In this document: piece by piece, positions 1,307 to 52,260 of the stretch | Layout: every line of letters starts with the position of its first letter | Numbering within the stretch: the first letter of the stretch is position 1 | Assembly (NCBI GenBank): GCA_030614255.1 | Contig: JAUWKI010000002.1 | Span: 4,449-68,448 of the forward strand | Source: Actinomycetes bacterium | GTDB taxonomy: Bacteria > Actinomycetota > Aquicultoria > UBA3085 > Oleimmundimicrobiaceae | Reading direction: 5' to 3' | Length of the DNA: 64,000 nt | Program-made: the position numbers and the translations under genes | The notes under the pieces: generated by a model | What the model was told of the DNA's origin: nothing | Databases searched by the model: none | What the model saw: only the letters and a program-made list of their open reading frames with translations

Positions 1307-1417
1307 AAAGTACCTCTTAAGTCGGTAGTTAACTAGGTGGTTAGTTGGCTGGTTTGTTAGTTGGTTTTTTACTCTTTTAACCTTCAACTTTCCACTTTTA
1401 ACTTTACCCTATACCCT
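1307..1417. repeat. Heptad-periodic low-complexity spacer (GTTNNNN units, then TTTACCCTATACCCTTTACCCTC). It contains the ACTACCGACTTAAGAGG word on the minus strand, placed 14 nt before the yacP start codon
   Basis: Direct reading of the sequence shows 7-bp periodicity: gtcggta gttaact aggtggt tagttgg ctggttt gttagtt. Confidence 0.6.
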
Positions 1418-2152
1418 TTACCCTCTTATCCTTTGTCTCCTAGCTTCGCACATCAAAATGGCTCCGGCGACAGCCACATTTAAGGAATTTACCTTACCGA
1501 ACATGGGTATTTTGATAAGAAAATCGCACTTTTCCAACAAGAGCCGGGCAATTCCCTTATCTTCTCCACCTAAGACCAAACCCAATTTCCCTGATAAATC
1601 GGCCTCATAATAATTTTTTTCAGCTGACGCATCGGCTCCGAATATCCAAAAACCGTTCTCTTTTAACCTTTCAACTGCCTGCACTAAATTGCTTACTTTA
1701 ACTATGGGAATGTGTTCAATGGCCCCTGCAGAAGTTTTATAAACAACCGGCGTCACTCCCACCGAGCGTTTTTTTGAAATGATGATTCCGCTAATTCCAC
1801 AAGTCTCGGCAGAGCGAATGAGAGAGCCAAAATTCTGAGGATCGGTAATCTCATCGAGAATTAAGACTATCGGTTCAGAAATTTTTTCGACTCTAACCAA
1901 AAAATCTTCGATGGACTGGCATCTAAAATCCTCTGCGTGAGCGATGACTCCCTGGTGAACTTCGATGTGGGAAAGAGATTCTATTTTTTCTCTGGGAAGC
2001 ACCTCGACAGGCACATGTCTTTCCCCCGCTAAAACTCTAATTTTTTTAATAACTTCGGTTTCCTTGAGCCCCTGAGCAATCAATATCTTTTTGACTTCGC
2101 GCTCTCCTCTTAGCAGCTCAAAAACCGGGTTACGTCCCTCGATGATATCCAC
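1418..2152 (-). CDS. rlmB: 23S rRNA (guanosine-2'-O)-methyltransferase RlmB (SpoU/TrmH family)
   Basis: Full-length ORF with SpoU methylase motifs. It lies between cysS and yacP, the conserved position. Confidence 0.85.
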   Translation of the reverse strand: MDIIEGRNPVFELLRGEREVKKILIAQGLKETEVIKKIRVLAGERHVPVEVLPREKIESLSHIEVHQGVIAHAEDFRCQSIEDFLVRVEKISEPIVLILDEITDPQNFGSLIRSAETCGISGIIISKKRSVGVTPVVYKTSAGAIEHIPIVKVSNLVQAVERLKENGFWIFGADASAEKNYYEADLSGKLGLVLGGEDKGIARLLLEKCDFLIKIPMFGKVNSLNVAVAGAILMCEARRQRIRG

Positions 2153-2155
2153 AAA

Positions 2156-3652
2156 TCATTTCCCCTCAAAAATTATCTGGCAACCTTGAGGTGTATCTTT
2201 CAACACAAAATATTGAGCGCTAAGCTTATCTCGAATCAGATCAGCTTTTGCCCAATCTTTATCTTTCCGAGCCTTCTCCCTGGCTTCTATCAAGACTTTT
2301 AATGCTTCGTTTTTGTCCTCAAAAGTGCGCCCAAAAATCTTTTCGGCAATGCCAATCAGAGCATCCGGCAGCTCTTCAACAGCTTTCTCTACCCCGAGCT
2401 CGATGCCCAAAACCGTCATAAACCCAATCAGTTTATCGCGCGCTTCCAACAGTAAGCATTTGGCACTCTCGCTTAAATTCTTCTGATTTTTCTCCAGAAA
2501 GAAGTTCATCTCTTTAACAAATTCGAAAATGACTCCCAGAGCGGAAGCTGTATTAAAATCATCGTCCATCGCCTCAAGAAATTTGCTCTCAACCCCCACA
2601 ACAACTTCCTTGAACCGCTTTTCTCCCAAATCATCTTGTTCTGTTTTCGCGCCCGACTCAACCAGATAATTAATATTATGAATCACGGTTTTTATTCTCT
2701 CAAGCGCCGAGGCGACAGCATTCAGATTTTCCTCGCTGTAATTTATTGGGCTACGATAATGTGTTGAAACAAAGAACATCCTAAGGACATTGGGGTCATA
2801 TTCTTTTAAAATTTCTCTTACTAAAATCACATTTCCGAGCGATTTGGCCATCTTTTCTTCCTTGATATTTACAAAACCGTTGTGAAGCCAGTACTTTACG
2901 AACGGCACCTTGCCTGCACAGGCTTCCGCTTGAGCAATTTCGTTCTCATGGTGGGGAAATATTAAATCATGGCCTCCTCCGTGGATATCGAACCCCATGC
3001 CAAGATATTTGGACGACATTACCGAGCATTCTATATGCCAGCCGGGTCGTCCTTTACCCCAAGGGCTATCCCAACTGGGCTCCCTCGATTTTGCTGCCTT
3101 CCAAAGAGCAAAGTCCATCGGATGACGTTTCTTCATATCTACATCCACTCTCTCTCCGGCCCTCATCTCCTCAATCGTCCGACCGGACAACTTCCCGTAA
3201 TCCCCAAATCTCTGAATCTCAAAGAAGACGTCACCGTCTACCTCATAGGCAAAACCTTTTCTAATTAGACAGTTAATTGTCTCAATCATCTCACTTATAT
3301 GTTCGGTTGCCTTTGGTTCAATCCGAGAAGATCTGTTGCCAAGGTTCTTCATATCTTTATGAAATGCCTTAATATATTTATCGGCAATTTCCTTGGTAGT
3401 TAATCCTTCCTTGTTTGCCCGTTTTATTATTTTGTCATCGATGTCCGTTAAGTTGCGAACGTAAGTGACATCATAGCCCTTATGCTGCAAATAGCGATAT
3501 ATAACATCGAAGGCTACATAGCAACGAGCATTGCCGATGTGAATATAGTTATAGACGGTGGGCCCACAAACATACATCGAAACTTTTCCTTTTTCGCGGG
3601 GAACAAACTTCTCCTTCTTTCTGGCCAGCGTGTTATAGACCCTAAGACTCAT
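2156..3652 (-). CDS. cysS: Cysteinyl-tRNA synthetase
   Basis: 498 aa with the HIGH motif (HIGNAR) and the KMSKS motif (KMAKS). N-terminus [16 protein letters not shown] is typical of CysS. Confidence 0.95.
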
Positions 3653-4292
3653 TTTTCTTCTTCATCTCCTCAACCAGATGTTCGAGCTTGTCTATTCGAC
3701 GATGCAAAGAGTTAAACGTTTCTGCCACGGGATCGGGGAGGCGCTCATGATGAAGATCCATAGTCGGAATTTTTTTGCCTTCCCTCTTTACAACCCTTCC
3801 CGGTATGCCGACAACCGTACTGTTTGGCGGAACGGGGTTAATTACCACGGCTCCTCCTCCAACAACAGAATTTTCACCAATAGTAATCGCTCCAAGAACC
3901 GTGGCACCAACACCGATTACAACGTTATCACCAATCGTCGGGTGGCGTTTCCCTTTCTCTTTCCCTGTTCCCCCTAAGGTCACACCTTGATATAGGGTAA
4001 CATTATCACCAATTTCGGTGGTCTCTCCAACGACTATACCCATCCCGTGATCAATGAAGAAACCTTTTCCAATCTTTGCTCCGGGGTGAATTTCAATAGC
4101 AGTTAAAAAACGACTAAGATGTGATATTAATCTGGCGAAAAGCTTTAAATCCCTTGCGTAAAACCAGTGAGCTACTCTATGGGACCTAAGAGCGTGAAAG
4201 CCCGGGTAGGTCAAGAATATCTCCAAGGTATTTCGCGCCGCAGGATCTCTATCTTTAACTGCCTGGAAATCACTTCTTAAGGTATCAAACAA
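3642..4292 (-). CDS. cysE: Serine O-acetyltransferase
   Basis: Hexapeptide-repeat left-handed beta-helix sequence ([24 protein letters not shown]). Sits between gltX and cysS. Confidence 0.9.
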
Positions 4293-5751
4293 GCTCCATT
4301 GCCTCCTCGATTCTCTCCAAACATTTCTCTTTCCCTAAAACCGAGATTACATAAAACAACTCCGGGCCGGATATCCTGCCGGTGAGAGCCGCACGAATAG
4401 GATGATAAGTTCCTTTTCCTTTAATATTTTTCATCTTCAATCTGCCGGCAACTTCCTTGAGAAGTACTTTTGCCATGTCAATATCGATTTTGTCCTCTTT
4501 CTCTAAAACTTCCTTGAGTATTTTAAGCACAGTTGGAATCTGCTCGCCTTTTAATATCTCTAAAGCATCCTCACTATAATCAAGCTTTTCTTCAAAGAAA
4601 AGCTTGGCACTCTTTACCACATCAGAGAGGGTCACAAGATTCGTCTGCACCGCTTCCACGACCTTTTCAATCCAAGCAATTTCTTCAATCGAAGGCTCAG
4701 ACGCAATATATCCTGCTTCCTTAAGATAGGGCAAAACCAAAGAAGTTAATTTTTTAAGCGGCAATCGTCTTATGTGCTGGCCGTTTATCCATTTAAGCTT
4801 ATCAATATCGAAGATAGCCGGACTTTTTGAAATCCTGTCTATTGAAAAAGCTTGAATTAGTTCTTGGGGAGTGAAAATCTCTCTACCATCACTGGACGAC
4901 CAACCAAGAAGAACAAGGTAGTTGACGAGCGCGCTTGGAAGAAATCCTTGTTTTCGATACTCTCCTATCGATGTCGCCCCGTGCCTCTTGCTAAGCTTCG
5001 CGTGATCCGGGCCTAAAGCCATCGAATTGTGAGCAAACTTTGGAACCGGATAACCCAATGCCTCAAAGAGAAGGATATGCCTAGCGGAGTTTGCGAGGTG
5101 ATCTTCTCCCCTTATGACATGGGTTATTTTCATGGTTGCATCGTCAATTACAACGGCGAAGTTGAAACTCGCCATTCCATCGGAGCGAATTAAAACGAAG
5201 TCTCCGATAACATCGCTATCGAATTCGACGTCGCCTTTGACCAAATCGTGAACCACAATTTTTCTTTTTGGAATTCTAAAACGTATGGTGGGTTTACGAC
5301 CTTCTGAGATTAAACGCTGCTCATCCTCAGGGGTTAAATTCCTGCAACGCCCATCATATTTCGGCATAACTCCCCGCTCAAGCGCTCCCTTGCGGTTCCT
5401 TTCAAGCTCATCCTCGGTGCAATAGCACCGATAAGCGAGCTCTTTTTCCAAGAGCTCGATGGCCATCTTTTTGTATAGTTCCCCACGTTTGCTCTGATAA
5501 TAAGGTCCGTAGTCGCCGCCAACCTCCGGCCCCTCATCCCAATTCAGCCCCAACCACTTAATATCTTCAATAATGGACTGCTCGTACTCAACAGCTGAAC
5601 GGCTGCGGTCTGTATCCTCAATTCGTAATATAAAAACACCGTTCTGACTCCTAGCAAAGAGCCAGTTAAATAAGACTGTTCTGGATGCCCCTATATGCAG
5701 ATGCCCCGTGGGACTCGGAGCAAACCTTACCCGAACATTTTTCAAAAACAC
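4285..5751 (-). CDS. gltX: Glutamyl-tRNA synthetase (copy 1)
   Basis: 488 aa with HIGH-type motif ([10 protein letters not shown]) and KLSKR. Probable GTG start preceded by an AAGGAG RBS. Confidence 0.95.
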
Positions 5752-5825
5752 ACACTCCTTATAGTCATCAGTTGACAGTCGGTAGTCGGGAGCACATTCT
5801 AATTAAAAAATAAAGTATAAGAATG

Positions 5826-5871
5826 CCCTGCCGGCAGGCAGGAAAAACGATATAGAAAAATTTAAAATGGA
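5826..5871 (-). repeat. Dispersed element R2 copy a: CCTGCC-NN-GGCAGG hairpin plus the 21-mer TATAGAAAAATTTAAAATGGA, in the gltX upstream region
   Basis: The 21-mer at 5851-5871 is identical to 41567-41587. A palindrome of the same type lies 8-13 nt to its left in both copies. Confidence 0.6.
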
Positions 5872-5965
5872 GCAAAATTCTTAAAAAGATCATCTAGAAA
5901 CTTTTTTAATTCTTAATTTTAGTTTTTCGCTTTTCATTCTCCATTTTTCACTTAACTTTACCCTT

Positions 5966-6439
5966 TTATTTTTCCTTTAACAAAACAACCGCTTGAGCGG
6001 CCATGCCTTCGCGTCGTCCGGTAAAACCCATTCCTTCTGTAGTCGTAGCCTTGAGACTTATTTGCGATTTATCAACTTTTAAAACCTTAGCAATTTTTTC
6101 TCTCATTTCCTCCCAATAAGGAGATAGTCTGGGCTCTTGTAAAATCACTGTAACATCCAAATTCTCAACCTTATACCCCTTTGAAAACATAAGCTTCGCA
6201 ATATTCGCAAGTAAGTCTAGACTATAAATGTTCTTATAGTTACTGGAGATATCCGGAAAATGCCGACCTATATCGCCCTCGGCAATAGCACCTAAAATTG
6301 CATCGATGGCCGCGTGGATCAAGACATCGGCATCCGAATGACCCTCCAGGCCTAGGTGATAGGGTATTTCAACCCCCCCTAAAACCAGAGGACGCCCTTC
6401 TATAAATCTATGCGCATCATAACCGATTCCAATCCTCAT
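5966..6439 (-). CDS. ispF: 2-C-methyl-D-erythritol 2,4-cyclodiphosphate synthase
   Basis: 157 aa. [12 protein letters not shown]...GHSDADV motifs are typical of IspF. Confidence 0.95.
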   Translation of the reverse strand: MRIGIGYDAHRFIEGRPLVLGGVEIPYHLGLEGHSDADVLIHAAIDAILGAIAEGDIGRHFPDISSNYKNIYSLDLLANIAKLMFSKGYKVENLDVTVILQEPRLSPYWEEMREKIAKVLKVDKSQISLKATTTEGMGFTGRREGMAAQAVVLLKEK

Positions 6440-7128: not shown

Positions 7129-8198
7129 TTGTCCTTCGCCATGCCTTTTTCCTCGTTTTTTAGCTTTGTAAAGATCATTCTTCCCGCCGAAGTCTGTAAG
7201 ACACTCGTCACAAAAACCTTAACTTCTTCGCCTGTGTAAGCGCTTCCACTCTCGACAACTACCATAGTGCCATCCTCTAGATAACCTACTCCCTGGCCAA
7301 CCTCTTTGCCTTCTTTAACGACGTATACATTCATTTCCTCGCCAGGGAGAACCACAGGTTTTAAGGCATTTGAAAGCTCGTTTATGTTGAGAACCATGAC
7401 ACTCTGCAACCCTGCAACTTTATTTAAATTGAAATCATTCGTAATTATGGGCAAATTCATGTCTTTACCCATTTGGACCAATTTCTCGTCAACACCCGAA
7501 GCTTTCGGGTAATCTTTTTCTACTATCTTTACTTTTACGTTTGATCCTCCTTGTAGTTCATGGAGAACATCTAAACCTCGACGGCCTCTGCTCCTTTTTA
7601 GCGAATCTTCTGAATCAGCTATGGTTTGGAGCTCTCTTAAAACAAAAATGGGAACAATCAACTCCCCACTTATAAAACCGGTTTTACAAATATCGGCGAT
7701 GCGTCCGTCTATAATTACACTAGTATCAAGAATTTTTTTTCGGGGAATGAGTGTTTTCCCATGTGCTTTAGGCTGACTTAAGAACCTGAAACTCAAACCA
7801 ATATCTTCCCTCTTTCGCAGCCCAAGCCACATCCCAAGATAGCCTAATATTACAAAGACGAGTACCGCTAAGTAAGGTCCAAATACTGTAACTCTCCAAA
7901 GAGGTAACGATATGAGGGTTGCTAAAATTAACCCAATAATCAAACCGGTAATCCCCACAATAATATCTAGAAGGGGTACTTTTTGAATAGCCCCTTCCAT
8001 CCAATTCAAACCCTTGGCGATCCGTGTGCCGACCGTGCCTCCTATTAAATACCCTACTCCAGCGCCAATTATAATATATAATATGATGCCTATAAACGGT
8101 GACCCCGGGATAGGAAGTTTATAGAAGCTCGCCAGTTCGGCTCCACAAACTGCGCCAAGGAGAGTAAACACCAAACGGATAATAGTAACTAACATCAA
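7125..8198 (-). CDS. yacL: PIN/TRAM-domain membrane protein (YacL-like)
   Basis: N-terminal transmembrane segments followed by PIN-like and TRAM-like regions. Conserved position upstream of ispD. Confidence 0.75.
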
Positions 8199-8374: not shown

Positions 8375-8409
8375 GGTTTCAGTCTAAACTATCTATAATA
8401 AAGGGTGAC

Positions 8410-8808: not shown

Positions 8809-8826
8809 GTCAGCTACCAGTCTTCC

Positions 8827-22205: not shown

Positions 22206-24044
22206 TTACTGAAATGTTATATATGCAAATTTTGAAGTCCCGTCATCTAATTCTATTCTCAATCGCCAGGTTCCCCTCGTAAGATCTTTTGTCCTGAGTT
22301 TGTAAAAATATTTATTGACAAAGCTATTATAATCAAACTCGTTGTCAGTTACCTTCGAGCTACTTGAGGTAGCCGCTATCTCTTCGCCAAAAGTACCGTC
22401 GATGTTCTTCTTCGCTAACCAGAGCTTGGCAGATGCATCGGTAACAAAATCACCATTAGCATCCCACAACTGGAATTTTACGGATAAGCCACTGCCCAAT
22501 TTAAAAACACTGCTTCCATCGCTTCTAATGGGTGGAAAAACACCACTATAAACATAACGAACATAATAAGTTCTCGTCTCTATTGTTTGGTTTCCGGCTT
22601 TATCCACCGCAACCACACTAAAAGTCTTTTCACCAACCGTAGCTGTGTCAATTACTCCCCCGTCAGGAATAGTTGCCGTCACCGAAGCTATCCCCGAAAG
22701 CGAATCATCGGCCAGCCAGCCAGCTAAAGCCGGCTCGTTCAATATATACTCAGCTCCATCAACCGGTGTAATTATTGAGACCTCTGGCGCTGTATTATCT
22801 ATTAATATATCAACTTCATTACTGGTTATTACACTTTCCAAATCGAAGTCGAACTTCTGGATTCGGTCGTTGTCTGTGTCGGCCACATAAACATTGCCGC
22901 TTGAATCAACGGTTATACCTATTGGATTCCGGAACTCGCCATCGTATAAGAAGCCGTAACTTCCCCATTTCCCAAGGAAAATGCCGTTTGAGTCGAACTT
23001 CTGGATTCGATGGTTAGAAAAATCGACTACATAAACATTGCCGCTTGAGTCGACGGCTATACCTATTGGATTCCGGAACTCGCCATCGTATAAGAAGCCG
23101 TAACTTCCCCATTCGCCAAGAAACTTGCCGTCTGAGTCGAATTTCTGGATTCGGTCGTTATTACAGTCAGCCACATAAACATTGCCGTCTGAGTCGACGG
23201 TTACACCAGTGGGGCAATCAAACTCACCTTTATCCGTACCGTAACTTCCCCATTCGGTGAGGGAATCACCATCTGAGTCGAACTTCTGGATTCGGTGGTT
23301 ATTACAGTCAGTCACATAAATATTGCCGCTTGAGTTGACAGTTACACCGAACGGGTCAAATGGGCCGTCGAGTGTACCATAACTTCCCCATTCGGTGAGG
23401 AAATTGCCATCCGAGTCGAACTTCTGGATTCGGTGGTTGCCCCGATCAGCCACATAAATATTGCCGCTTGAGTCGACGGCTACACCAGTGGGACAGTTAA
23501 ACTGGCCATCGTCTATGTCAAGACTTTCCCATTCGAAGAAATTGCCATTTGAGTCAAATTTCTGGATTCGGTGATTGTACGTGTCGGCCACATAAACATT
23601 GCCGCTTGAGTCAACTACTATGTCATATGGGCGGTTAAATTGGTCGTCGAGTGTACCAGAACCTTCCCATTTCAGAGTAAACTTATAACTTCCAATAGAA
23701 ACATTGAGTCTGGAGACGTAGTCCCCTTCATTAACTGAACCGCCATCATCGTCTGTCCCGTCCCAGATGATGCTATGAGTTCCACTGTTTTGAACACCAC
23801 CGTTGACAGTTCTGATAGGCTCACTTTCCAAATCATAATCCGAATCATAAATTTCAAGCGAAACATTGCCATCGTCAACATCGATTAAAGTGTAATTTAT
23901 GCTGGTGCTACCCGTCTCTGAATTAAAAGCATAAGGATCTACGACAATGTCAATTATAGCTGAATTACCAGATGCTAACGAAGTTGGTAGTAAAAGGGCT
24001 AAAAATAAAACCACAACTGTAAAACTTGTAACTATTTTCTTCAT
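22206..24044 (-). CDS. Secreted NHL-repeat beta-propeller protein
   Basis: Signal peptide MKKIVTSFTVVVLFLALLLPTSLASG. At least 6 NHL-type repeats (GxFxxPxGVAVDSSGNIYVAD..NHRIQKFD). The DNA also carries about 130 bp tandem repeats from 22850 to 23620. Confidence 0.85.
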   Translation of the reverse strand: MKKIVTSFTVVVLFLALLLPTSLASGNSAIIDIVVDPYAFNSETGSTSINYTLIDVDDGNVSLEIYDSDYDLESEPIRTVNGGVQNSGTHSIIWDGTDDDGGSVNEGDYVSRLNVSIGSYKFTLKWEGSGTLDDQFNRPYDIVVDSSGNVYVADTYNHRIQKFDSNGNFFEWESLDIDDGQFNCPTGVAVDSSGNIYVADRGNHRIQKFDSDGNFLTEWGSYGTLDGPFDPFGVTVNSSGNIYVTDCNNHRIQKFDSDGDSLTEWGSYGTDKGEFDCPTGVTVDSDGNVYVADCNNDRIQKFDSDGKFLGEWGSYGFLYDGEFRNPIGIAVDSSGNVYVVDFSNHRIQKFDSNGIFLGKWGSYGFLYDGEFRNPIGITVDSSGNVYVADTDNDRIQKFDFDLESVITSNEVDILIDNTAPEVSIITPVDGAEYILNEPALAGWLADDSLSGIASVTATIPDGGVIDTATVGEKTFSVVAVDKAGNQTIETRTYYVRYVYSGVFPPIRSDGSSVFKLGSGLSVKFQLWDANGDFVTDASAKLWLAKKNIDGTFGEEIAATSSSSKVTDNEFDYNSFVNKYFYKLRTKDLTRGTWRLRIELDDGTSKFAYITFQ

Positions 24045-31378: not shown

Positions 31379-32227
31379 CTAATTTCCTTTAATTAAAATA
31401 TTATCGATTAACCTTGCTTTGCCCACTCTAGCAGCCAAGGCAATCAAGGCTTCTCTTTTTATTATAGTCAGTTCTCGTAACGAAATAGTATCACAGATGG
31501 ACAGGTATTCTAAATTAACTAAGGGTTCTTTTTTAATTAACCTTATCATTGACTCTCTTATTTCCCCTGGATTTTTTTCACCGTTTTCTACCATTTCTGA
31601 TGCCAATCTAAGCGATTTACTTAAAACAAGCGCCGCTTTTCTTTCTTCGGAACTGAGATACCTATTGCGGGAACTCATAGCCAAACCATCTTCTTCTCTT
31701 ACTGTTGAAACACCGACCACTTGAAGATCAAAATTTAGGTCTTTAGCCATCCTCTTTACGACCATCAACTGTTGATAATCCTTTTCACCAAAGTACGCAA
31801 AATCAGGATTTACCATATTAAAGAGTTTGGAAACAACCGTGGCAACTCCTTGAAAATGACCGATTCTGCAAGCTCCGCAGAGAACATCGGTTATCTTCTC
31901 AACGTTAACATGAGTTAAGTTTTCCTCCGGATACATCTCTTCCACAGAAGGAGCAAAGAGATAATCGACTCCGACTTTCTCGGCCATCTTTGAATCACTT
32001 TTCAAGTCTCTAGGATAAGCTTCAAAATCTTCGGAGGGACCAAACTGAGTCGGATTTACAAAGATGCTGGTTACAGTAACATCGCACTCTTCTTTTGCCC
32101 TCCGCATTAGAGCAAGATGACCTTCGTGGAAACAACCCATCGTCGGGACTAACCCTATAGTTTTATCGCCTCTTCTTTCCTGCTTTAAGATTGCCTTAAT
32201 CTCTTTTATGGTTGTAACTATTTTCAT
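31379..32227 (-). CDS. panC: Pantoate--beta-alanine ligase
   Basis: 282 aa with PTMGCFHEGHLALM (HIGH-like) motifs. The ACTACCGACTTAAGGGTG word lies 13 nt before the start codon. Confidence 0.95.
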   Translation of the reverse strand: MKIVTTIKEIKAILKQERRGDKTIGLVPTMGCFHEGHLALMRRAKEECDVTVTSIFVNPTQFGPSEDFEAYPRDLKSDSKMAEKVGVDYLFAPSVEEMYPEENLTHVNVEKITDVLCGACRIGHFQGVATVVSKLFNMVNPDFAYFGEKDYQQLMVVKRMAKDLNFDLQVVGVSTVREEDGLAMSSRNRYLSSEERKAALVLSKSLRLASEMVENGEKNPGEIRESMIRLIKKEPLVNLEYLSICDTISLRELTIIKREALIALAARVGKARLIDNILIKGN

Positions 32228-32235
32228 AAAACACC

Positions 32236-32290
32236 CTTAAGTCGGTAGTATGCCTAGCTTCCAGCCCCCAGTCTCCAGCCGCCAGCATAA
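32236..32290. repeat. Heptad-periodic spacer (CTTCCAG CCCCCAG TCTCCAG CCGCCAG) between panB and panC, including the GTCGGTAGT word
   Basis: Direct reading shows 7-bp phasing of CCAG. The unit CCCCAGT is identical to cyanobacterial STRR1. Confidence 0.7.
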
Positions 32291-32461
32291 AAATTAATAA
32301 ATAAGAATGAAAAACCATAATATAAAATTAAAAATGCTTTTGTACTATTTTTGTTTTTTACTCTTTACCACTTGCCAGATTCTTATTCATACATCATTTG
32401 TTTTTCCTGGTAGCTAACGACTGATAACTGGTGGCTTCCTTCCTCTTTACCCTTTCTTTTA

Positions 32462-34778: not shown

Positions 34779-34794
34779 TTAAACACCCCTGTTA

Positions 34795-34978
34795 TTAGCT
34801 ACCAGTCACCAGCTTACAGCCACCAGGATAAAGTGCAAGACTTGAAATTCAGAGAATGGATTTGTGGTTAGAAAGTTTGGTTTGCCGGATTATTGGTTGG
34901 ATAGTTTTCCCCATACTCCAACATTCTGCTCTATTTTTAGTTTTGCTGAAAGCTGAGAGCTGGAGGCTGACGGCTAAA
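34795..34978. repeat. Heptad-periodic spacer between folP and folK (TAGCTAC CAGTCAC CAGCTTA CAGCCAC; GCTGAAA GCTGAGA GCTGGAG GCTGACG)
   Basis: Two phased 7-mer arrays flank a GTTTGGT/GTTGGAT-rich middle. The 200 bp gap sits inside a presumably co-transcribed folate operon. Confidence 0.7.
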
Positions 34979-36810: not shown

Positions 36811-36841
36811 AACAAAAAGGCCACCCGATTAACAGCGGCCC
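36811..36841 (-). terminator. Intrinsic-terminator-like hairpin (GGCCGC...GGGTGGCC followed by TTTTTGTTATTTT) about 50 nt upstream of the folE start. Candidate attenuator or riboswitch expression platform
   Basis: On the minus strand: gataagGGCCGCtgttaatcggGTGGCCtttttgttattttggggg. The hairpin plus U-tract sits inside the 5' leader of folE. Confidence 0.55.
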
Positions 36842-36965
36842 TTATCTTGCCGACTTAAGTCGGCCCTGGTTTTAGTTATCATCATAAGGCCAATGCTTAG
36901 GATGCTATATTATTAAACCAATCACCGGCTCTCATCCTCCAGGAAAATCAAAAATAAAAGCTTTT

Positions 36966-37258
36966 TATTGGTTTTTTAAAACCCGAGTGGGTTGGGTAGA
37001 CAGCGACCCACCTCCGACACTCCGTCGGGCAGGCTCTCCAGAGGCGGGGTTTCGACTGAAGCTATCTATTGTTTTTAGTTTTTAAAACTCGGTGGGTCGG
37101 ACAAATCGAAACTTGAGGCCGCCCCGATGAAACGAGTGGAAGGCTGGAAAGTGAACAAAGTGAGTGTCCAAGAATCTGTCTGAGCGTAAGCGAGTTATTC
37201 TCGGCCCGCCCGGAGCGAGTAAAGTCGCGGATACGGCCGAGTGTGGAGCATATTCGAC
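36966..37258. other. GC-rich, highly structured ~290 bp non-coding island with a 105-nt-spaced direct repeat (TTTTAAAACYCGRGTGGGTYGG), many local hairpins and a long-range GTGGGTCGG/CGACCCAC complement. Possible structured RNA or regulatory leader of the fol operon
   Basis: Local GC content is far above the ~40% background. No ORF with a homolog. It lies between the ftsH terminator and the folE attenuator. Confidence 0.35.
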
Positions 37259-37369
37259 CCACAAAAAAGAAATAACTAATTAAACAAACAATAACAAATC
37301 AGCTGTTAAGATTAAAAACGAGATTACTTCGCCGTGCCTACAGGATAAACCGGCGGTTTATAGCACTAA

Positions 37370-37400
37370 CAAAAAGGCCACCCGTCAAACGAGTGGCCTT
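37370..37400 (-). terminator. Rho-independent terminator of ftsH (GGCCACTCGTTTGACGGGTGGCC + TTTTTGTT on the minus strand)
   Basis: Perfect 8-bp GC stem followed by a U-run, 20 nt after the ftsH stop. Confidence 0.8.
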
Positions 37401-37421
37401 TCTTACAGATAAATGTCCTGC

Positions 37422-41587: not shown

Positions 41588-41687
41588 AATTTCTTTAAGG
41601 TAATGCTCATCATAAAATCAACATCTATTTCTCGGGTAAACTATGCTTGGAAATCATTTTTATTTTTTCATTATCGTTTTACATTCT

Positions 41688-41748
41688 TCATTTTTCATTT
41701 TTTCGTAAGACCAGGCAACCCTGTACCAGGTATCTGGCATTTAACTTC
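41688..41748 (-). repeat. Dispersed ~60 bp element R1 copy 1 (TTTTCGTAAGACCAGGCAACCCTGTACCAGGTATCTGGCATTTAACTT)
   Basis: About 90% identical to 51971-52036. Contains a CCAG-ATAC-CTGG mini-hairpin. Lies downstream of the amidase gene and upstream of tilS. Confidence 0.6.
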
Positions 41749-41759
41749 ACTCTATATCC

Positions 41760-42851
41760 TTACTTAAGGTATTTAACTATCCCGTTAAACAACCCCCGAG
41801 CCGCTTTATTCTGGAACGATTCGTCATTTAAGAGGGTATCTTCTTCGGGGTTGCTCAAAAAACAAATCTCAGACAGAACAACTGGAACCTGCGACCAATT
41901 AAAGCCCGTAATATCTCCTCTTGCAATTATTCCTTTATTTGCCCGCCCGCAAGCGATGACCATCTCCCGCTGAATAAGTTGAGCAGCTTTCCGGCTTTCA
42001 TCGTATATAGACCCACACCATTCATTTCTGGAAGGATAAAGAGTCATGATACCATTTGATGAAGTGCTTGAACTGCCATTACAATGAATTCGGACAAACA
42101 AGTCGGCCTTTGCCTCGTTGGCAATTTGAGCTCTTTCAGAGTTACTAATGTTTACATCGTTAGTAGTCCGAACCATCACAACCTTAATCCCTTCACTTTC
42201 AAGCATTTTCTTCAATTTTAACCCTATCTGTAAAACTATCTCATATTCGGGAGTTCTTGAATTTACTCCGGTTCCTCCTCCTCTGCATCTCTCTTTCGTT
42301 GTGGTAGAACCCGGTCCGATAGATTCTGGAGAGTTATCTGCATGCCCCTGATGACCTGGGTCTATACAGACTATAAACTCAAACGATGTTACCTTTAAGT
42401 CCTCAAAATCTTCGGAGTCCTCCTCGAATGCCTCAGGGGTAGCTTCCCCAAGCCCTTCGGAAAGATCAGTTTCAACATCTGTTGGAACTTCCTTAGCAGA
42501 TGTTCTCTCTGCCCCTTTGCTCACCGATATGACGATTAACTTGCCTCTTTTTACTCGACTTCCTGAGTCAGGTTTTTGAGAAATAACAGTTCCCTCGGGT
42601 AAATCGCTGAATTTTTCTGAAACTTCAAGATCAAACCCACTTTGGGAAACCAGACCTTTTGCTTCTTCTAAATTTTTTCCAACCAAATTCGGGACGACCT
42701 CGGAAACAATAACGTTTGTATAGATATAATAAAAACCAAGAATCAAAAGTATCAGTAGAAAGAAAACGCTGAGAAGTCCCCGCTTTCGGCGTTTTCTGTA
42801 AATTACGATGCCGTGTTTTAGTTTAACTTTTGGAGTAAAATTTCGCTTCAC
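41760..42851 (-). CDS. Membrane-anchored PASTA-domain / N-acetylmuramoyl-L-alanine amidase (Amidase_3) fusion protein
   Basis: N-terminal TM segment, then a PASTA-like domain (VPNLVGKNLEEAKGLVSQSGFDLEV), then a C-terminal amidase_3 core (CIDPGHQGH...NGSSS...). Confidence 0.7.
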   Translation of the reverse strand: MKRNFTPKVKLKHGIVIYRKRRKRGLLSVFFLLILLILGFYYIYTNVIVSEVVPNLVGKNLEEAKGLVSQSGFDLEVSEKFSDLPEGTVISQKPDSGSRVKRGKLIVISVSKGAERTSAKEVPTDVETDLSEGLGEATPEAFEEDSEDFEDLKVTSFEFIVCIDPGHQGHADNSPESIGPGSTTTKERCRGGGTGVNSRTPEYEIVLQIGLKLKKMLESEGIKVVMVRTTNDVNISNSERAQIANEAKADLFVRIHCNGSSSTSSNGIMTLYPSRNEWCGSIYDESRKAAQLIQREMVIACGRANKGIIARGDITGFNWSQVPVVLSEICFLSNPEEDTLLNDESFQNKAARGLFNGIVKYLK

Positions 42852-45770: not shown

Positions 45771-45845
45771 CTCAAATTAAATAATAACTAAATACCCTAT
45801 GATATAATATCACCTGTTAATCAACTTTGGCAAAGCGAGGGAAAA

Positions 45846-46940: not shown

Positions 46941-46953
46941 ATAGCTGATGTTT

Positions 46954-47015
46954 GCCCGCCTCCCCGCCTGCCTACGCCTATGATGCCGTTAGGCATTGGC
47001 GGGCAGGTGGCGGAG
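46954..47015. terminator. Extended GC-rich inverted repeat (GCCCGCCTCCCCGCCTGCC ... GGCGGGCAGGTGGCGGAG) downstream of the radical SAM gene
   Basis: Member of the CCCGCC/GGCGGG hairpin family, with an inner GCCTA/TAGGC hairpin. Confidence 0.5.
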
Positions 47016-47033
47016 TTTATGACTAAAATAGTT

Positions 47034-47110: not shown

Positions 47111-47116
47111 GTAAAA

Positions 47117-47941
47117 ATGAGACCGAAAGTAGGACATATACAATTTTTAAACTGTTTCCCACTCTATCACGGATTGGTGACTAACAACGGACTTCTGGGG
47201 ATAGAATTAATTAAGGGTACTCCAACTGAGCTCAATAAAATGCTTGTTCAAGACGAGCTCGATGTGAGCCCTATTTCGGCAATGGAATACGGCCGTCACA
47301 GTAATAAACTTTATCTGTTACCTAATCTGACCGTAAGTTCAGATGACGAAGTAAAAAGTATTCTTCTAATAAGCAAGGTTCCACCAAATGAGTTAAATGA
47401 GAAGAAGGTCGCTTTAACAAATACCTCAGCTACCTCACAAGTGTTGGTACAAATAATTTTGAAAGATAAATATGGGGTAACTCCTGAGTATTTCCCTTGC
47501 CCGCCTGACCTGCCCCAGATGTTTCTCGAAGCAGACGCTGCTCTCCTAATCGGAGACGATGCGCTAAGAGCCCTATATAATCCCCAGGGTTTTCACATTA
47601 TCGACCTTGGTCAAGAGTGGAAAAATCTAACTGGCCAAAAAATGGTCTATGCAGTTTGGTGCGCAAGGAAAAAATTTGCTAAAGAAAATCCACACCTTTT
47701 AAAAGAAGTCTATGACACCCTTCAAAAATCCATGGAGTATAGTTTAAAAAACGTCGACGAAATATCCTTGGCCGCCTCGAAATGGGAGATATTTACCGCT
47801 GACTTTTTGAAGGATTATTTCCTTTCATTAAACTTTACTTTCGATGAGAATTATCAAGCAGGGCTTAAATGTTTCTTTAACAAAGCAAAAGAGCACGGAT
47901 TCTTAAAGAAGGTGCCGGAACTCAAGTTTGTGGAGGTATAG
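47117..47941 (+). CDS. mqnA: Chorismate dehydratase MqnA-like (futalosine pathway)
   Basis: 274 aa MqnA/MqnD-fold protein. N-terminus MRPKVGHIQFLNCFPLY. Confidence 0.75.
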   Translation: MRPKVGHIQFLNCFPLYHGLVTNNGLLGIELIKGTPTELNKMLVQDELDVSPISAMEYGRHSNKLYLLPNLTVSSDDEVKSILLISKVPPNELNEKKVALTNTSATSQVLVQIILKDKYGVTPEYFPCPPDLPQMFLEADAALLIGDDALRALYNPQGFHIIDLGQEWKNLTGQKMVYAVWCARKKFAKENPHLLKEVYDTLQKSMEYSLKNVDEISLAASKWEIFTADFLKDYFLSLNFTFDENYQAGLKCFFNKAKEHGFLKKVPELKFVEV

Positions 47942-49013
47942 ATTGAAAGCAACGGAGAATATTTTAAAAAAATCTCTTTCTGGAAAAAGAATTACAGAAA
48001 ACAAGGCACTCACCCTATTGAAAGAAGGCAAGCTAATTCAATTGGGAGAAGCTGCAAACGAATTGCGCAAAAAATTTCACCACGAAGGCATTGTCACATT
48101 TGTCATCGATAGAAACATAAATTACACCAACATATGCGAGAGTAAATGTAAGTTCTGCGCCTTCTATAGAGAAAAAACTGACCCGGACGCTTACGTTCTC
48201 GACAAAGATGAAATATTTTCAAAGATAGATGAGGCATTAGAGCTAGGCGGAACTCAAATTATGCTACAAGGAGGGCTTAACCCCGACTTAAAAATAGACT
48301 ATTACACAGATTTGCTTTCAGCTATAAAATCAAATTACAAGATACACATCCACTCCTTTTCCCCCCCGGAAATTGCTCACATCTCTAAAAACTCAGGACT
48401 TTCACTAAGAGAAACTCTTTCGGAGTTAAAGAAAGCGGGGCTTGATTCTTTACCCGGTGGAGGTGCCGAGATCTTAGTTGACCACATTAGACATCAGATA
48501 AGCCCAAACAAAATCGGAGCCGAACTCTGGCTTAAGGTTATGGAAGAAGCTCACAACGTTGGTCTTCGAGCAACCGCAACCATGATGATGGGAAGTTTGG
48601 AAACATTGGAGGAAAGAATCTCTCATCTCTCCAAATTAAGAGCTCTGCAAGATAAAACAGGAGTTTTCAGGGCCTTTATCCCCTGGACATTTCAACCCGG
48701 GCACACAGAACTAGGTGGGGAGAAAACAACGGGGGTTGAATATCTAAAAATGCTTAGCGTCTCGAGGATATTTTTAGATAATTTTGAGCATGTGCAGGGT
48801 TCATGGCTTACCCAGGGCAAAAAAATTGGGCAAATTGCTCTTCATTTCGGGGCAAACGACTTGGGAAGCATAATGATAGAGGAAAATGTCGTCGCCTCAA
48901 CAGGCGTCTGTTACAAGATGTCAAAGGACCAGATAATCAATATGATTAATAAAGCGGGTTTTATCCCGGCCCAAAGAAACACCAAATATGAAATTTTAGA
49001 AACCTTTAGTTAA
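47928..49013 (+). CDS. Radical SAM MqnC/MqnE family enzyme (paralog 2)
   Basis: CxxxCxxC (CESKCKFC). Colinear with paralog 1. Confidence 0.8.
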   Translation: MWRYRLKATENILKKSLSGKRITENKALTLLKEGKLIQLGEAANELRKKFHHEGIVTFVIDRNINYTNICESKCKFCAFYREKTDPDAYVLDKDEIFSKIDEALELGGTQIMLQGGLNPDLKIDYYTDLLSAIKSNYKIHIHSFSPPEIAHISKNSGLSLRETLSELKKAGLDSLPGGGAEILVDHIRHQISPNKIGAELWLKVMEEAHNVGLRATATMMMGSLETLEERISHLSKLRALQDKTGVFRAFIPWTFQPGHTELGGEKTTGVEYLKMLSVSRIFLDNFEHVQGSWLTQGKKIGQIALHFGANDLGSIMIEENVVASTGVCYKMSKDQIINMINKAGFIPAQRNTKYEILETFS

Positions 49014-49122
49014 TTGTAAGTCCGTGTTCACTTAATCAATGCTTCTAAGTTAAAAATTTACACTTGGACTTCTGCGAAAAATAAAAAACTTTTACTTTCA
49101 ACAAAGAACAGGCAGAAGCACC

Positions 49123-50594: not shown

Positions 50595-50689
50595 ATAATG
50601 GCATTAAACTCCAGTTTGTTATTTGCGTCAATCCTTCTATGCTTTTGTTTGCCACTAAACTTTACTATAAGATTCGAGCTTCAGCATAG

Positions 50690-50780
50690 GTTTTCAGAAG
50701 AACAAAAGAAATTTAACCCAGCGAGTTTTATCCTCGCCAGAAGAAACACCAAATATAAAATCCTGGAGACTCTCAGTTAG
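50690..50780 (+). pseudogene. 3'-terminal fragment of a MqnC/E-like gene (relic duplication)
   Basis: 50719-50780 aligns at about 75% nucleotide identity with 48952-49013. The peptide ...ASFILARRNTKYKILETLS* matches the paralog-2 C-terminus ...AGFIPAQRNTKYEILETFS*. No radical SAM core precedes it. Confidence 0.5.
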
Positions 50781-50976
50781 TAAGTAAACTACCACCGGCC
50801 ACAGGGCTGGTGGCTTTCCTACCCCCGATGCAGGCGATATCATTGCTATAAGGGACCTTTTGGGATTAATTATTCACTGGGAAGAGAAAACCGAGTAAAA
50901 AAACAGAGTCATCGTTGCAGGGACCCTAAGATACACTGAGCTCAAACCGCACCTATAATTACCCAACCGGTTATCC

Positions 50977-51867
50977 CTAAACGTTTCCAAGATGGACATG
51001 TTTTAACTTCTTAAGTGCAATTTCCTCGGCCATCCTCAATGTTTTAAGAGACGTCGGCGGTTCCGAGTATTCAAGATAAGGAAAATAACGGCTAAAATGC
51101 AAGGGGGTTTCCTTGCCAACTTTAGATGCTACCCACTCAACAAGCTTTTCAATCTCCTCTCTTGAATCATTTAAGCCCGGAACTAATAAATTAGTCAATT
51201 CAACGTGACATTTTTTACTGGCAATTTCAACAGTGCGCAACACCGGAGCGAGCTTTCCACCAAGTTTTCTGTAAATCTCATCGGAAAATCCTTTCACGTC
51301 GATATTCATAGCATCAATATATGGCAACAACTTTTTAAGAGGTTCTTCATTAACATAACCGTTGGTGACCAAAACATTCTTCAGTCCGTTTTCGCGAGCA
51401 AGCTTGGCGGTTTCATAGACATACTCAAACCAGACAAACGGCTCATTGTACGTATATGCCAAACCAATATTATCATTTTTAAGATAAGCTAAGGCGAGGT
51501 CAACCGCCTGTTTTGGAGACAAAGAATCGGTCACCCTGGAGACAACCTTCTCCATATCCTCACCGGGGAAAACTTCACGAGGTTGAGCAATTTGCCAATT
51601 TTGACAGAAGGGACATGCCAAATTACAGCCAATGCTTCCCAAAGATAAAATCATTGTTTTGGGATGAAAATGATAAAGCGGCTTCTTTTCTATGGGGTCG
51701 AGATTGCAAGAGCAGATTCTACTGTAAGTCAACGCAACAAGAGTTCCGTCGATATTCTTTCTGATACAGCATATCCCTGTTTTACCAGGAGAAATTACAC
51801 ATTTATGGGGACAAAGAAGACACTTTACTTTCTTATCAGGCCTCTTTTCATAGAATTTAGCTTCCAT
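50977..51867 (-). CDS. Radical SAM enzyme, AmmeMemoRadiSam-system (AmrS) / PFL-activase-like
   Basis: N-terminal Cys cluster (CLLCPHKC...GIC) plus the CNLACPFCQNW radical SAM motif. 296 aa. Confidence 0.7.
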   Translation of the reverse strand: MEAKFYEKRPDKKVKCLLCPHKCVISPGKTGICCIRKNIDGTLVALTYSRICSCNLDPIEKKPLYHFHPKTMILSLGSIGCNLACPFCQNWQIAQPREVFPGEDMEKVVSRVTDSLSPKQAVDLALAYLKNDNIGLAYTYNEPFVWFEYVYETAKLARENGLKNVLVTNGYVNEEPLKKLLPYIDAMNIDVKGFSDEIYRKLGGKLAPVLRTVEIASKKCHVELTNLLVPGLNDSREEIEKLVEWVASKVGKETPLHFSRYFPYLEYSEPPTSLKTLRMAEEIALKKLKHVHLGNV

Positions 51868-51970
51868 GAACCACGCCCCCTTACCTCTCGATACAATTAT
51901 AACGTAAGTGCCCTTAATAAGACTTCAATTTTTCAACACAGGCATCAACTATAGATAAAACTTCCTTATG

Positions 51971-52036
51971 ATTTTCATTCTCCACTTTTTCGTAAGACCA
52001 GGCAACTCTGTGCCAGGTATTTGGCATTTAACTTTA
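51971..52036 (-). repeat. Dispersed ~60 bp element R1 copy 2
   Basis: About 90% identical to 41688-41748. Lies about 100 nt upstream of the AmrS-like gene start. Confidence 0.6.
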
Positions 52037-52039
52037 CCC

Positions 52040-52260
52040 ATTACCCTATACCAACCAGTCGGTAGTTTCTTAGTGGGAAGTCGGCAGTTTGCCGGCCAAA
52101 TTACTGATTTTACTATATTCCATATTCTATACTCTATATTCCATTCACCATCTGCTATCTGCCCCGCCAAAGGCGGGCAAGCATCTGCTATCAGCTATCT
52201 AGTCGGTAGTCCGTAGTCTGGAGTCGGTAGTTTGTTGGCTAGATTGCTGGTCTTACTATA
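52040..52260. repeat. 220 bp spacer built from phased heptamers (ATAYTCY units; AGTCGGT AGTCCGT AGTCTGG AGTCGGT) plus four GTCGGYAGT words and a CCCGCC-AAAG-GCGGG hairpin
   Basis: Direct reading. Lies between tRNA-Arg and the AmrS-like gene. Confidence 0.75.

What the first reader, a model, noticed from the sequence alone, without database searches (positions are those of the whole stretch)
1321..52231. Recurrent 5'UTR word ACTACCGAC(TTAAGRG) placed right at the ribosome-binding site of several minus-strand genes
On the sense (minus) strand the 9-mer ACTACCGAC occurs 13-23 nt before the start codons of yacP (1321-1329), panC (32241-32249) and gltX (5775-5783). In the first two it is part of an identical 15-16-mer ACTACCGACTTAAGRG that supplies the Shine-Dalgarno. 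Four more copies (52058, 52080 variant, 52202, 52223) lie in the leader upstream of the AmrS-like radical SAM gene. A shared sequence that embeds the RBS suggests a common translational operator, for example an RNA-binding protein or sRNA target, or the terminus of a small mobile repeat that lands next to starts.
Basis: seen in the sequence. Interest (0 to 1): 0.7.

Follow-up and report, generated by a model that had tools for sequence, protein, structure and literature searches.

The report
Heptamer-repeat unit in front of ribosome-binding sites
The recurring word ACTACCGAC is real, but it is one spelling of a 7-base repeat unit that fills the spacers between genes in an uncultured low-GC actinobacterium; nothing shown here makes it a dedicated switch on the ribosome-binding site, although the repeat frame next to that site is unusually well conserved.

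Summary
Observation partly confirmed. ACTACCGAC occurs 6 times (0.14 expected), always on the minus (sense) strand and always between genes. Only two copies (yacP, panC) abut the Shine-Dalgarno (SD). The gltX copy is 3 nt off the stated coordinates and 32 nt from the start. Three copies lie 190-355 nt upstream of the radical-SAM gene.

The word is ACTACCG+AC, a unit of ACT-phased heptamer arrays that run in register up to the SD (yacP ACTACCG|ACTTAAG|AGG; gltX five units|GGAG). Spacers in this genome, which lies near Candidatus Oleimmundimicrobium (Actinomycetota), are packed with period-7 arrays of several families, a ~200-nt dispersed cassette and small GC hairpins.

In relatives the exact 9-mer is not kept:
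- yacP: ACTACTGAC and ACTGCCGAT in the two nearest relatives, with other arrays further out.
- panC: ACTTCCC|ACTAACA in four relatives, ACTGCCGAC in an outgroup.
- Inverted copies follow the panB stop codon.

The ACT frame is kept better than the four variable bases (88% versus 66%), and the start-proximal units survive when the rest of the spacer is swapped.

Best reading: a unit of an STRR-like repeat system, with the SD belonging to the gene. A periodic ACU-N4 RNA operator is not excluded. A genome-wide test was not possible.

The parts
1316..1329 (-). Two ACT-phased heptamer units, ACTACCG|ACTTAAG, forming the end of the rlmB-yacP spacer. The word is at 1321-1329.
   Evidence: Orthologs read ACTACTGACTTAAG (L081) and ACTGCCGATTTAAG (L083).
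1304..1318 (-). yacP SD AAGAGG (1313-1318), 6-nt spacer and ATG (1304-1306). The SD overlaps the last three bases of unit 2.
   Evidence: A 167-aa gene call is identical in L071-L073. NYN_YacP Pfam match from residue 5.
1330..1417 (-). Rest of the rlmB-yacP spacer. A C-free block of GGGTAAA/GTTAAAA-type arrays is followed by a G-poor block of CCAACTA-type arrays.
   Evidence: The spacer is 97.3% identical to L081, against 85% and 79% in the flanking coding DNA.
32236..32249 (-). Two ACT-phased units, ACTACCG|ACTTAAG, forming the end of the panB-panC spacer. The word is at 32241-32249.
   Evidence: Identical in four independent assemblies of the same species. Replaced by ACTTCCC|ACTAACA in L065, L069 and L077. 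L087 has ACTGCCGACTTAAA.
32225..32236 (-). panC SD GGGTG, TTTT spacer and ATG. GGTGTTTTATG is the part conserved in relatives.
32250..32461 (-). Rest of the panB-panC spacer: a GGGTAAAG start, an NNNNCAG array, an AT-rich middle and a GCTGGNN array (32256-32286).
   Evidence: The fold pairs the 5' and 3' arrays, z -2.5.
5759..5793 (-). Five-unit array GCTCCCG|ACTACCG|ACTGTCA|ACTGATG|ACTATAA in the gltX leader, ending in register at the SD. The word is at 5778-5786.
   Evidence: Aligned with L081 and L083. The homology block with L081 starts at 5792.
5743..5760 (-). gltX SD AAGGAG (5755-5760), spacer and TTG start (5743-5745).
   Evidence: 486-aa gene call. Pfam.
5794..5962 (-). Copy of the ~200-nt dispersed intergenic cassette. 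It runs GGGTAAAGTTAAG..AATGGAGAATGAAAAG..AATTAAGAATTAAAAAAGTTT..TTTTAAATTTTTCTATA..hairpin 5826-5843 plus T-tract..TTTATTTTTTAATTAGA.
   Evidence: The same cassette sits at other loci in relatives (folK and panC spacers of L065, L069 and L077). Terminator-like hairpin reported.
52197..52231 (-). Five-unit array ACTACCG|ACTCCAG|ACTACGG|ACTACCG|ACTAGAT, downstream of tRNA-Arg and far from any start. It contains two copies of the word.
52053..52088 (-). Units ACTGCCG|ACTTCCC|ACTAAGA|A|ACTACCG|ACTGGTT, with the word at 52058-52066. They belong to a dispersed module that also occurs in a guaB-like to guaA spacer of a relative (L080).

Best explanation
ACTACCGAC is not a free-standing signal. It is one spelling (ACTACCG + AC) of the unit of ACT/GCT-phased heptanucleotide tandem arrays.

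The organism is an uncultured actinobacterium with 41% GC. Its nearest named relative is Candidatus Oleimmundimicrobium (class Ca. Aquicultoria). Its intergenic spacers are assembled from several kinds of repeat:
- short, degenerate period-7 arrays of several families (GGGTAAA just after stop codons, then GATGGCW, GCTGGNN, CCAACTA and ACTNNNN);
- a ~200-nt dispersed cassette;
- small GC-rich hairpins.

ACT-phased arrays form the last 14-35 nt of several leaders and run in register up to the Shine-Dalgarno. The SD itself (GAGG, GGTG or GGAG) belongs to the gene. The identical yacP and panC 14-mer is the same two units, ACTACCG|ACTTAAG, with the A-rich end of the last unit leading into the SD.

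Shown:
- the period-7 structure;
- the register with the SD;
- turnover of the four variable bases;
- a length difference of two whole units (14 nt) in one leader pair, and one ambiguous case;
- wholesale swapping of the upstream spacer with retention of the start-proximal units;
- inverted copies elsewhere.

Inferred:
- The arrays arise and spread by slippage, duplication and ectopic conversion, as is assumed for tandem repeats.
- The start-proximal units are tolerated, or mildly favoured, as a G-poor, weakly structured spacer in front of the SD rather than acting as a sequence-specific operator.
For: - Enrichment and strand.
- Period 7: lag-7 identity is 0.325 in spacers against a baseline of about 0.285, with no such peak in coding DNA. 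There are 34 period-7 arrays, and 24 of them lie wholly between genes. TRF rows agree. ACT-N4 triplets occur only at period 7, and other triplets are phased in the same way.
- Register with the SD.
- Orthologs, yacP: ACTACTGAC in L081, ACTGCCGAT in L083, and other R/GCT arrays in L085 and L086.
- Orthologs, gltX: the word sits in unit 2 in the window and L083. In L081 the ungapped alignment puts it in unit 1, or else there is a one-unit indel.
- Orthologs, panC: ACTTCCC|ACTAACA or ACTAGCA|ACTAAAC in four relatives.
- Orthologs, folK: five units in L065 against three in L077.
- Inverted copies TTAGTCGGTAGTCGGGAGC follow the panB stop in L066, L069 and L077.
- The cassette occupies non-orthologous loci.
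- Leaders are weakly folded, with z from -0.7 to +1.2.
- No Rfam family matches.
- The same sequences appear in 3-5 independent assemblies, so this is not an assembly artefact.
Against: - The start-proximal units are better conserved than a neutral repeat should be. Homology with L081 and L083 begins at the first ACT unit while the upstream spacer is unrelated.
- The gltX leader is about 90% identical to L081, against 77% for the whole block.
- ACT positions are 88% identical across orthologous leaders, against 66% for N4 positions.
- An outgroup (L087) has ACTGCCGACTTAAAGGTG at panC.
- The whole rlmB-yacP spacer is 97.3% identical to L081, although the flanking coding DNA is 79-85% identical.
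- CCGAYTTAAR is over-represented in the clade, 16 found against 2.3 expected.
- No genome-wide count could be made.
Confidence: 0.58

Rival explanations
1. Periodic RNA operator. The (ACU-N4)n tract directly 5' of the SD would be the binding platform of an oligomeric RNA-binding protein that reads a triplet every 7 nt, as HutP reads XAG-N4. It could also serve as a ribosome standby site. Binding would control translation of a set of housekeeping genes.
For: - ACT is phased only at 7 nt, and the arrays end in register at the SD in four gene families.
- The triplet is more conserved than the spacer, 88% against 66%.
- Orientation is always sense at these positions.
- The tract is retained when the rest of the spacer is replaced.
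- The outgroup L087 keeps the panC motif.
- There is a precedent for recognition of triplets at a 7-nt period: HutP binds three XAG motifs with U4 spacers, and cleavage occurs at U498, U505 and U512 (PMC2425495).
Against: - yacP and panC have only two units.
- Many other heptamer families with different cores fill the same spacers.
- The same ACT arrays occur 190-355 nt from any start, and in inverted orientation after stop codons.
- The genes are functionally unrelated.
- No candidate protein was identified.
- The conservation statistic uses non-independent pairs from few species.
Confidence: 0.2
2. Boundary of a mobile element. The word would be the terminal repeat, or the preferred target, of the ~200-nt dispersed intergenic cassette (MITE-like), which lands just upstream of gene starts.
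For: - The cassette is found at different loci in different species, always in sense orientation. In the window gltX spacer and in the L065 and L077 folK spacers it ends in TTTATTTTTTAATTAGA followed by ACTACCGAC.
- Homology breakpoints fall at the first ACT unit.
- GCTCCCGACTACCGACT in the window gltX leader is the exact inverse of AGTCGGTAGTCGGGAGC at the other end of panC spacers in L069 and L077.
- A 46-nt hairpin is inserted right after ACTACCGACT in L080.
Against: - The word stays with the gene when the cassette is absent (L081 gltX).
- yacP has the word without the cassette.
- L065 and L069 panC cassettes end without the word.
- The two inverted 17-mers were never seen flanking one and the same element.
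- No target-site duplication was seen, and whole spacers rather than discrete inserts differ between species.
- No transposase is linked to it.
Confidence: 0.12
3. Extended Shine-Dalgarno or sRNA target. CCGACUUAAGG would pair with an unusually long 16S 3' tail, or with a trans-acting RNA.
For: - UUAAGG continues the SD in yacP and panC.
- CCGAYTTAAR is enriched, and in L065, L069 and L077 it also sits 5 nt from an AAAGGAGG.
Against: - From general knowledge, the conserved bacterial 16S tail (..CACCUCCUUUCU or ..CCUCCUUA) does not contain GUCGG.
- gltX and folK copies are separated from the SD by 2-4 further units.
- No complementary copy lies on the sense strand in the window.
- The 16S gene of this organism was not available.
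Confidence: 0.05
4. Chance recurrence of a 9-mer, with no underlying feature.
For: None beyond the small number of copies.
Against: Six copies against 0.14 expected, with 0 of 100 shuffles reaching 6. All copies are on one strand and all are intergenic.
Confidence: 0.01

Closest known systems
Cyanobacterial STRR (short tandemly repeated repetitive) heptanucleotide sequences
   Same: Both are 7-bp units in short tandem arrays, dispersed over many intergenic spacers, often within operons and sometimes able to pair. STRRs are described as usually made of 7-bp repeats of unknown function, possibly affecting transcript stability or translational coupling (PMC2670836). Small hairpin elements also sit inside the arrays here. 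From memory, this resembles the small dispersed repeats described in Nostoc.
   Different: The host is an uncultured actinobacterium, not a cyanobacterium. The canonical units recalled from memory (CCCCAGT, TTGGTCA, CAACAGT) are at chance level here. Arrays are short (2-7 units) and degenerate, with a 3-base core and four variable bases. They show polarity within the spacer, with GGGTAAA types after stops and ACT/GCT types in register with the SD.
Triplet-repeat RNA operators of HutP (XAG-N4) and TRAP ((G/U)AG-N2-3)
   Same: A conserved triplet is repeated at a fixed period (7 nt for HutP), with non-conserved spacers, in the leader RNA. From general knowledge, TRAP sites can overlap an SD and block translation. 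HutP data are in PMC2425495.
   Different: The triplet is ACU, not XAG. Two of the leaders have only two units. No cognate protein is known. The genes form no regulon. The same arrays occur away from leaders and in both orientations.
Modular intergenic repeats: REP/BIME and REPIN, pneumococcal BOX, Neisseria Correia elements, mycobacterial MIRU
   Same: These are dispersed, non-coding, modular elements in intergenic spacers of operons. They are in part oriented with transcription, and some carry promoter- or terminator-like parts. The ~200-nt cassette and the GC hairpins behave this way. The features of the known families are recalled from general knowledge.
   Different: No sequence similarity was tested or is claimed. 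No RAYT or transposase link is evident. The word itself is a 7-nt array unit rather than a palindrome or terminal inverted repeat. MIRU units are 40-100 bp.

Membership tests
STRR-type heptanucleotide tandem repeats | Repeat unit of 7 bp | tested here: met
   TRF reports period 7 at 52200-52231 and at about ten other spacers. There is a lag-7 identity peak in spacers only. ACT is phased only at period 7.
STRR-type heptanucleotide tandem repeats | Tandem arrays dispersed over many intergenic loci of one genome | tested here: met
   There are 34 arrays in 64 kb, 24 of them wholly intergenic. The same holds in relatives.
STRR-type heptanucleotide tandem repeats | Canonical cyanobacterial unit sequences (CCCCAGT, TTGGTCA, CAACAGT) and a cyanobacterial host | tested here: not met
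   The three units occur at chance level. The nearest named relative is Ca. Oleimmundimicrobium, phylum Actinomycetota.
Triplet-repeat RNA operator (HutP/TRAP type) | At least three copies of a conserved triplet at a fixed spacing with variable spacers | tested here: inconclusive
   gltX has four or five units and the tRNA-Arg region five, but yacP and panC have only two. The triplet is 88% identical across orthologs and the spacer 66%.
Triplet-repeat RNA operator (HutP/TRAP type) | A cognate oligomeric RNA-binding protein and a coherent regulon | not testable with these tools
   The genome could not be retrieved. The genes carrying the tract (yacP, gltX, panC, folK) are functionally unrelated.
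MITE-like mobile element, with the word as its terminus | Terminal inverted repeats on one element, a target-site duplication, and precise empty versus filled sites | tested here: not met
   Inverted 17-mers were seen only at different loci. Whole spacers differ rather than discrete inserts. The word persists where the cassette is absent.
Extended SD / anti-SD pairing | Complementarity of the word to the 16S rRNA 3' end | not testable with these tools
   There is no rRNA gene in the window, and the organism is absent from the searchable genome collection.
Any curated RNA family (Rfam 15) | Covariance-model match in the leaders or spacers | tested here: not met
   Only three tRNAs reach the gathering score, and nothing in the spacers reaches E<=0.5.

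The most novel reading that the evidence does not exclude
In this actinobacterial lineage a periodic ACU-N4 (more broadly RCU-N4) tract, kept in register with the Shine-Dalgarno of several housekeeping genes, is a functional RNA element. It would be read by an as yet unknown oligomeric RNA-binding protein or by the ribosome. The genome-wide heptamer arrays would then be the raw material, or the footprint, of that system. This would also offer a functional handle on the long-unexplained cyanobacterial STRR heptamers.
Probability: 0.12. Interest if true: 0.8.

Novelty: new variant of a known kind. Interest (0 to 1): 0.5.

Why it matters
As far as I know, heptanucleotide tandem arrays that colonise intergenic spacers have been described only in cyanobacteria, where their role has stayed unknown for decades. 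My literature searches found no report for this lineage.

Here a comparable system appears in an uncultured, deep-branching actinobacterial lineage, and it adds two things:
- The array families have a fixed polarity inside the spacer.
- One family keeps its 3-base frame in register with the ribosome-binding site across species, while everything upstream is swapped.

If the frame is functional, it would be a new type of leader element. If it is not, the lineage is still a second, independent system in which the origin and turnover of heptamer arrays can be studied. For annotation, the practical message is that identical words next to start codons in such genomes need not be operators.

Tried and rejected
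1. A scan of genome contigs with an 18-mer of the window's 74-nt repeat (TTCGTAAGACCAGGCAAC) gave four unrelated single hits.
2. A scan of metagenome contigs with the cassette core gave only four loci (L077-L080). This was useful but far from a genome-wide sample.
3. A scan of viral contigs with the 14-mer gave 56 loci. All but L057, where two matches overlap on opposite strands, hold a single isolated match. I took them as chance hits and did not pursue them.
4. The idea that spacers form closing hairpins from complementary arrays was tested by folding four whole spacers. The z-scores were -0.65 to -2.5, and only panC was notable.
5. The idea that the word's UACC sequesters the SD (GGUA or GGUG) rests on a 4-bp helix of -2.9 to -5.5 kcal/mol that is no better than shuffles. 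I rejected it.
6. Rfam returned nothing at the gathering score or at E<=0.5.
7. The cyanobacterial STRR unit sequences are not enriched.
8. A sigma-70 consensus scan gave no convincing promoter in the cassette. It did report a terminator-like hairpin with a T-tract at 5826-5843.
9. A literature search for Oleimmundimicrobium returned nothing.
10. One Python folding script timed out. Searches failed on file or sequence handling and were rerun.

Full report
**1. The observation**

ACTACCGAC occurs six times in the 64-kb window. All copies are on the minus strand and all lie between genes: 1321-1329, 5778-5786, 32241-32249, 52058-52066, 52202-52210 and 52223-52231. Dinucleotide-preserving shuffles give 0.14 copies, and none of 100 reaches six. 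With one mismatch there are 15 hits against 5.2 expected, including ACTGCCGAC at 52080 and ACTACGGAC at 52209.

The yacP and panC copies share the exact 14-mer ACTACCGACTTAAG. In those two genes the word ends 14 and 13 nt before the ATG.

It ends 32 nt before the TTG start that the gene callers use (486 aa). A separate AAGGAG SD lies between the word and the start.

The other copies lie 190-355 nt upstream of the radical-SAM gene and just downstream of tRNA-Arg.

**2. What the word is**

The word reads ACTACCG+AC. At 52197-52231 the sequence is ACTACCG|ACTCCAG|ACTACGG|ACTACCG|ACTAGAT, and TRF reports period 7 there. The three start-proximal copies parse as follows:

| Gene | Units, then SD |
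|---|---|
| gltX | GCTCCCG, ACTACCG, ACTGTCA, ACTGATG, ACTATAA, then GGAG |
| yacP | ACTACCG, ACTTAAG, then AGG |
| panC | ACTACCG, ACTTAAG, then GGTG |

- ACTNNNNACTNNNNACT occurs seven times against 0.36 expected.
- ACT is phased only at period 7: six sense-strand hits, against 0-1 at every other spacing tested.
- The 'TTAAG' extension is therefore simply the next unit.

The word is one family among several. Identity at lag 7 is 0.325 in spacers against about 0.285 at neighbouring lags, and coding DNA shows no such peak. A simple detector finds 34 period-7 arrays, and 24 of them lie wholly in the 12% of the window that is intergenic. CTG/CAG, TGG/CCA, GGC and ATG are also phased at period 7.

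The families have a polarity within the spacer:
- GGGTAAA-type purine arrays follow stop codons.
- AATGGAG and T-rich blocks occupy the middle.
- ACT- or GCT-phased arrays sit at the 3' end.

GCTGGNN arrays also run up to the SDs of folK (34779-34978) and of the plus-strand menaquinone gene at 47117.

**3. Organism and relatives**

The species is not in the searchable genome collection. The PanC and YacP proteins are found in an NCBI MAG contig of 129 kb and in several Logan and ENA assemblies. The nearest named relatives are Candidatus Oleimmundimicrobium sp. and 'MAG Actinobacteria', at 70-76% protein identity. That genus belongs to Actinomycetota, class Ca. Aquicultoria.

Independent assemblies of the same species carry identical spacers. 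The arrays are therefore real and are not hypervariable.

**4. Orthologous positions**

*yacP*
- L081 (Ca. Oleimmundimicrobium, GCA_030651595.1) has ACTACTGACTTAAGAGGTATTTTATG.
- L083 has ACTGCCGATTTAAGAGGTATTTTATG.
- L085 and L086, more distant, have other heptamer arrays (ACTGAAG|ACTGGCA|GCTAATT.. and GCTCTAA|GCTCCGT..).

*gltX*
- All three species have five units.
- In the ungapped alignment, the exact word lies in unit 2 of the window and in unit 1 of L081.
- L083 has ACTACCAAC in unit 2. A one-unit indel is the alternative reading.

*panC*
- L065, L069 and L077 have ACTTCCC|ACTAACA|GGTG, and L066 has ACTAGCA|ACTAAAC|AGGTG.
- The outgroup L087 (PanC 64-67% identical to all the others) has ACTGCCGACTTAAAGGTG.
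- All fit ACT.CC.ACT.AA..GGTG, which points to one old two-unit leader changing by point mutation.

*folK*
- L065 has five units and L077 three, a 14-nt difference.
- The window and L069 have GCTGG-type arrays there instead.

L088 has no visible heptamer arrays in the two spacers I read by eye, and no copy of the word.

**5. What is conserved**

blastn of the window against L081 and L083 gives 72-82% identity in coding DNA. The homology blocks start at the first ACT-phased unit: window 5792 against L081, and window 1329 against L083. The spacer upstream of that point is unrelated.

Across the orthologous leaders, ACT positions are 88% identical and the four spacer positions 66%. A naive Fisher test gives p of about 3e-4, but the pairs are not independent.

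The whole 111-nt rlmB-yacP spacer is 97.3% identical between the window and L081, while the flanking 300 nt of coding DNA are 85% and 79% identical. In L083 the same spacer is replaced. Spacers therefore seem either to be kept almost intact or to be swapped wholesale. I cannot explain this.

**6. Larger repeats around the word**

A ~200-nt cassette lies in the window's gltX spacer. It also lies in the folK and panC spacers of L065, L069 and L077, and in diverged form in the L083 gltX spacer and the window tilS spacer. It is always in sense orientation. Its sequence runs GGGTAAAGTTAAATGGAAAATGGAGAATGAAAAG..AATTAAGAATTAAAAAAGTTT..TTTTAAATTTTTCTATA..TTTATTTTTTAATTAGA.

In several copies the cassette ends just before ACTACCGAC. 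However, the word is also present where the cassette is absent (L081 gltX, and yacP).

Inverted copies (TTAGTCGGTAGTCGGGAGC) follow the panB stop in L066, L069 and L077. They are the exact complement of GCTCCCGACTACCGACT in the window gltX leader.

The copies at 52058-52088 belong to a module that recurs in a non-orthologous spacer of L080. There, a 46-nt GC hairpin is inserted right after ACTACCGACT.

**7. Tests of function**

- Leaders containing the word fold weakly, at -1 to -8 kcal/mol with z from -0.7 to +1.2.
- Whole spacers give z from -0.65 to -2.5.
- No Rfam family matches.
- No complementary copy lies on the sense strand in the window.
- There is no rRNA gene to test anti-SD pairing.
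- CCGAYTTAAR is enriched in the clade sample, 16 found against 2.3 expected. It also occurs as the palindrome GCCGACTTAAGTCGGC in another dispersed element.

**8. Interpretation**

The best-supported reading (about 0.58) is that the word is a unit of an STRR-like heptamer repeat system, and that the SD belongs to the gene. Where the word abuts the SD, the cause is that ACT-phased arrays occupy the 3' end of spacers.

The conservation of the ACT frame and of the start-proximal units keeps a functional reading alive. That reading is a periodic ACU-N4 platform, by analogy with HutP's XAG-N4 sites (PMC2425495), or a standby region. I put it at about 0.2.

The mobile-element-terminus reading gets about 0.12, because the word stays with the gene when the cassette is missing.

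Cyanobacterial STRRs are the closest known kind. They are described as 7-bp repeats in intergenic regions with unknown function (PMC2670836). The host and unit sequences differ here, and the register with the SD has not, to my knowledge, been described.

**9. Limits**

Only about 76 kb of this species and about 170 kb of relatives could be examined. The enrichment near starts rests on four gene families. Phylogenetic non-independence inflates the conservation statistics.

Noticed in passing
window 1307-1417; L081 9890-10000: The rlmB-yacP spacer consists entirely of heptamer arrays: the first ~58 nt contain no C and the next ~45 nt almost no G. It is 97.3% identical to a relative whose flanking coding DNA is only 79-85% identical. 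In a third species the same spacer is replaced.
   Followed up: partly
window 5794-5962; L065 7240-7430 and 9800-9990; L069 9800-9990; L077 7540-7760 and 10560-10720: A dispersed intergenic cassette of about 200 nt, always in sense orientation, occupies different spacers in different species. It holds a promoter-like TTTTAAATTTTTCTATA block and, in the window copy, a hairpin plus T-tract.
   Followed up: partly
window 52163-52184, 5826-5843, 46950-47010 (+), about 58690-58720; L066 7290-7320; L080 about 7920-7965: Small GC-rich palindromic hairpins (core TGCCCGCC..GGCGGGCA) sit inside heptamer arrays. One 46-nt version is 96% identical between window 46956-47007 and L080.
   Followed up: partly
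window 41687-41760 and 51974-52047: A 74-nt repeat (85% identity) with a hairpin-like core (AAATGCCARATACCTGGYACAGRGTTGCCTGGTCTTACG). It follows GGGTAAAG arrays and is followed by AATGAAAA-type arrays.
   Followed up: no
window 36825-37421; palindrome at 36849-36864; L077 9560; L080 1816: A 597-nt spacer between ftsH and folE contains a GC-rich stretch that looks structured and has no Rfam match. It ends with the palindrome GCCGACTTAAGTCGGC, which is part of another dispersed element seen in two relatives.
   Followed up: partly
window 48946-49012 and 50713-50779; L077 9497-9556: A 67-nt direct repeat (76% identity) is present twice in the window. A stretch just 3' of the second copy (window 50782-50841) matches relative L077 at 88% over 60 nt.
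   Followed up: no
L065 5332, L069 5389, L077 12634 (strand opposite to folE): CCGACTTAAAACAAAGGAGG lies antisense in the spacer upstream of folE in three relatives. The motif sits next to an SD-like sequence, but no gene is called there.
   Followed up: no
window 22847-23673: Five to six coding repeats of 138-144 bp lie inside the 612-aa gene at 22206-24044.
   Followed up: no
L088 (GCA_964348135.1), 3936-4220 and 5895-6012: This relative, at 62-64% PanC identity, has no visible heptamer arrays in the two spacers read by eye. L087 (64-67%) and the YacP relative L086 (51%) do have arrays. This marks a possible boundary of the phenomenon.
   Followed up: partly
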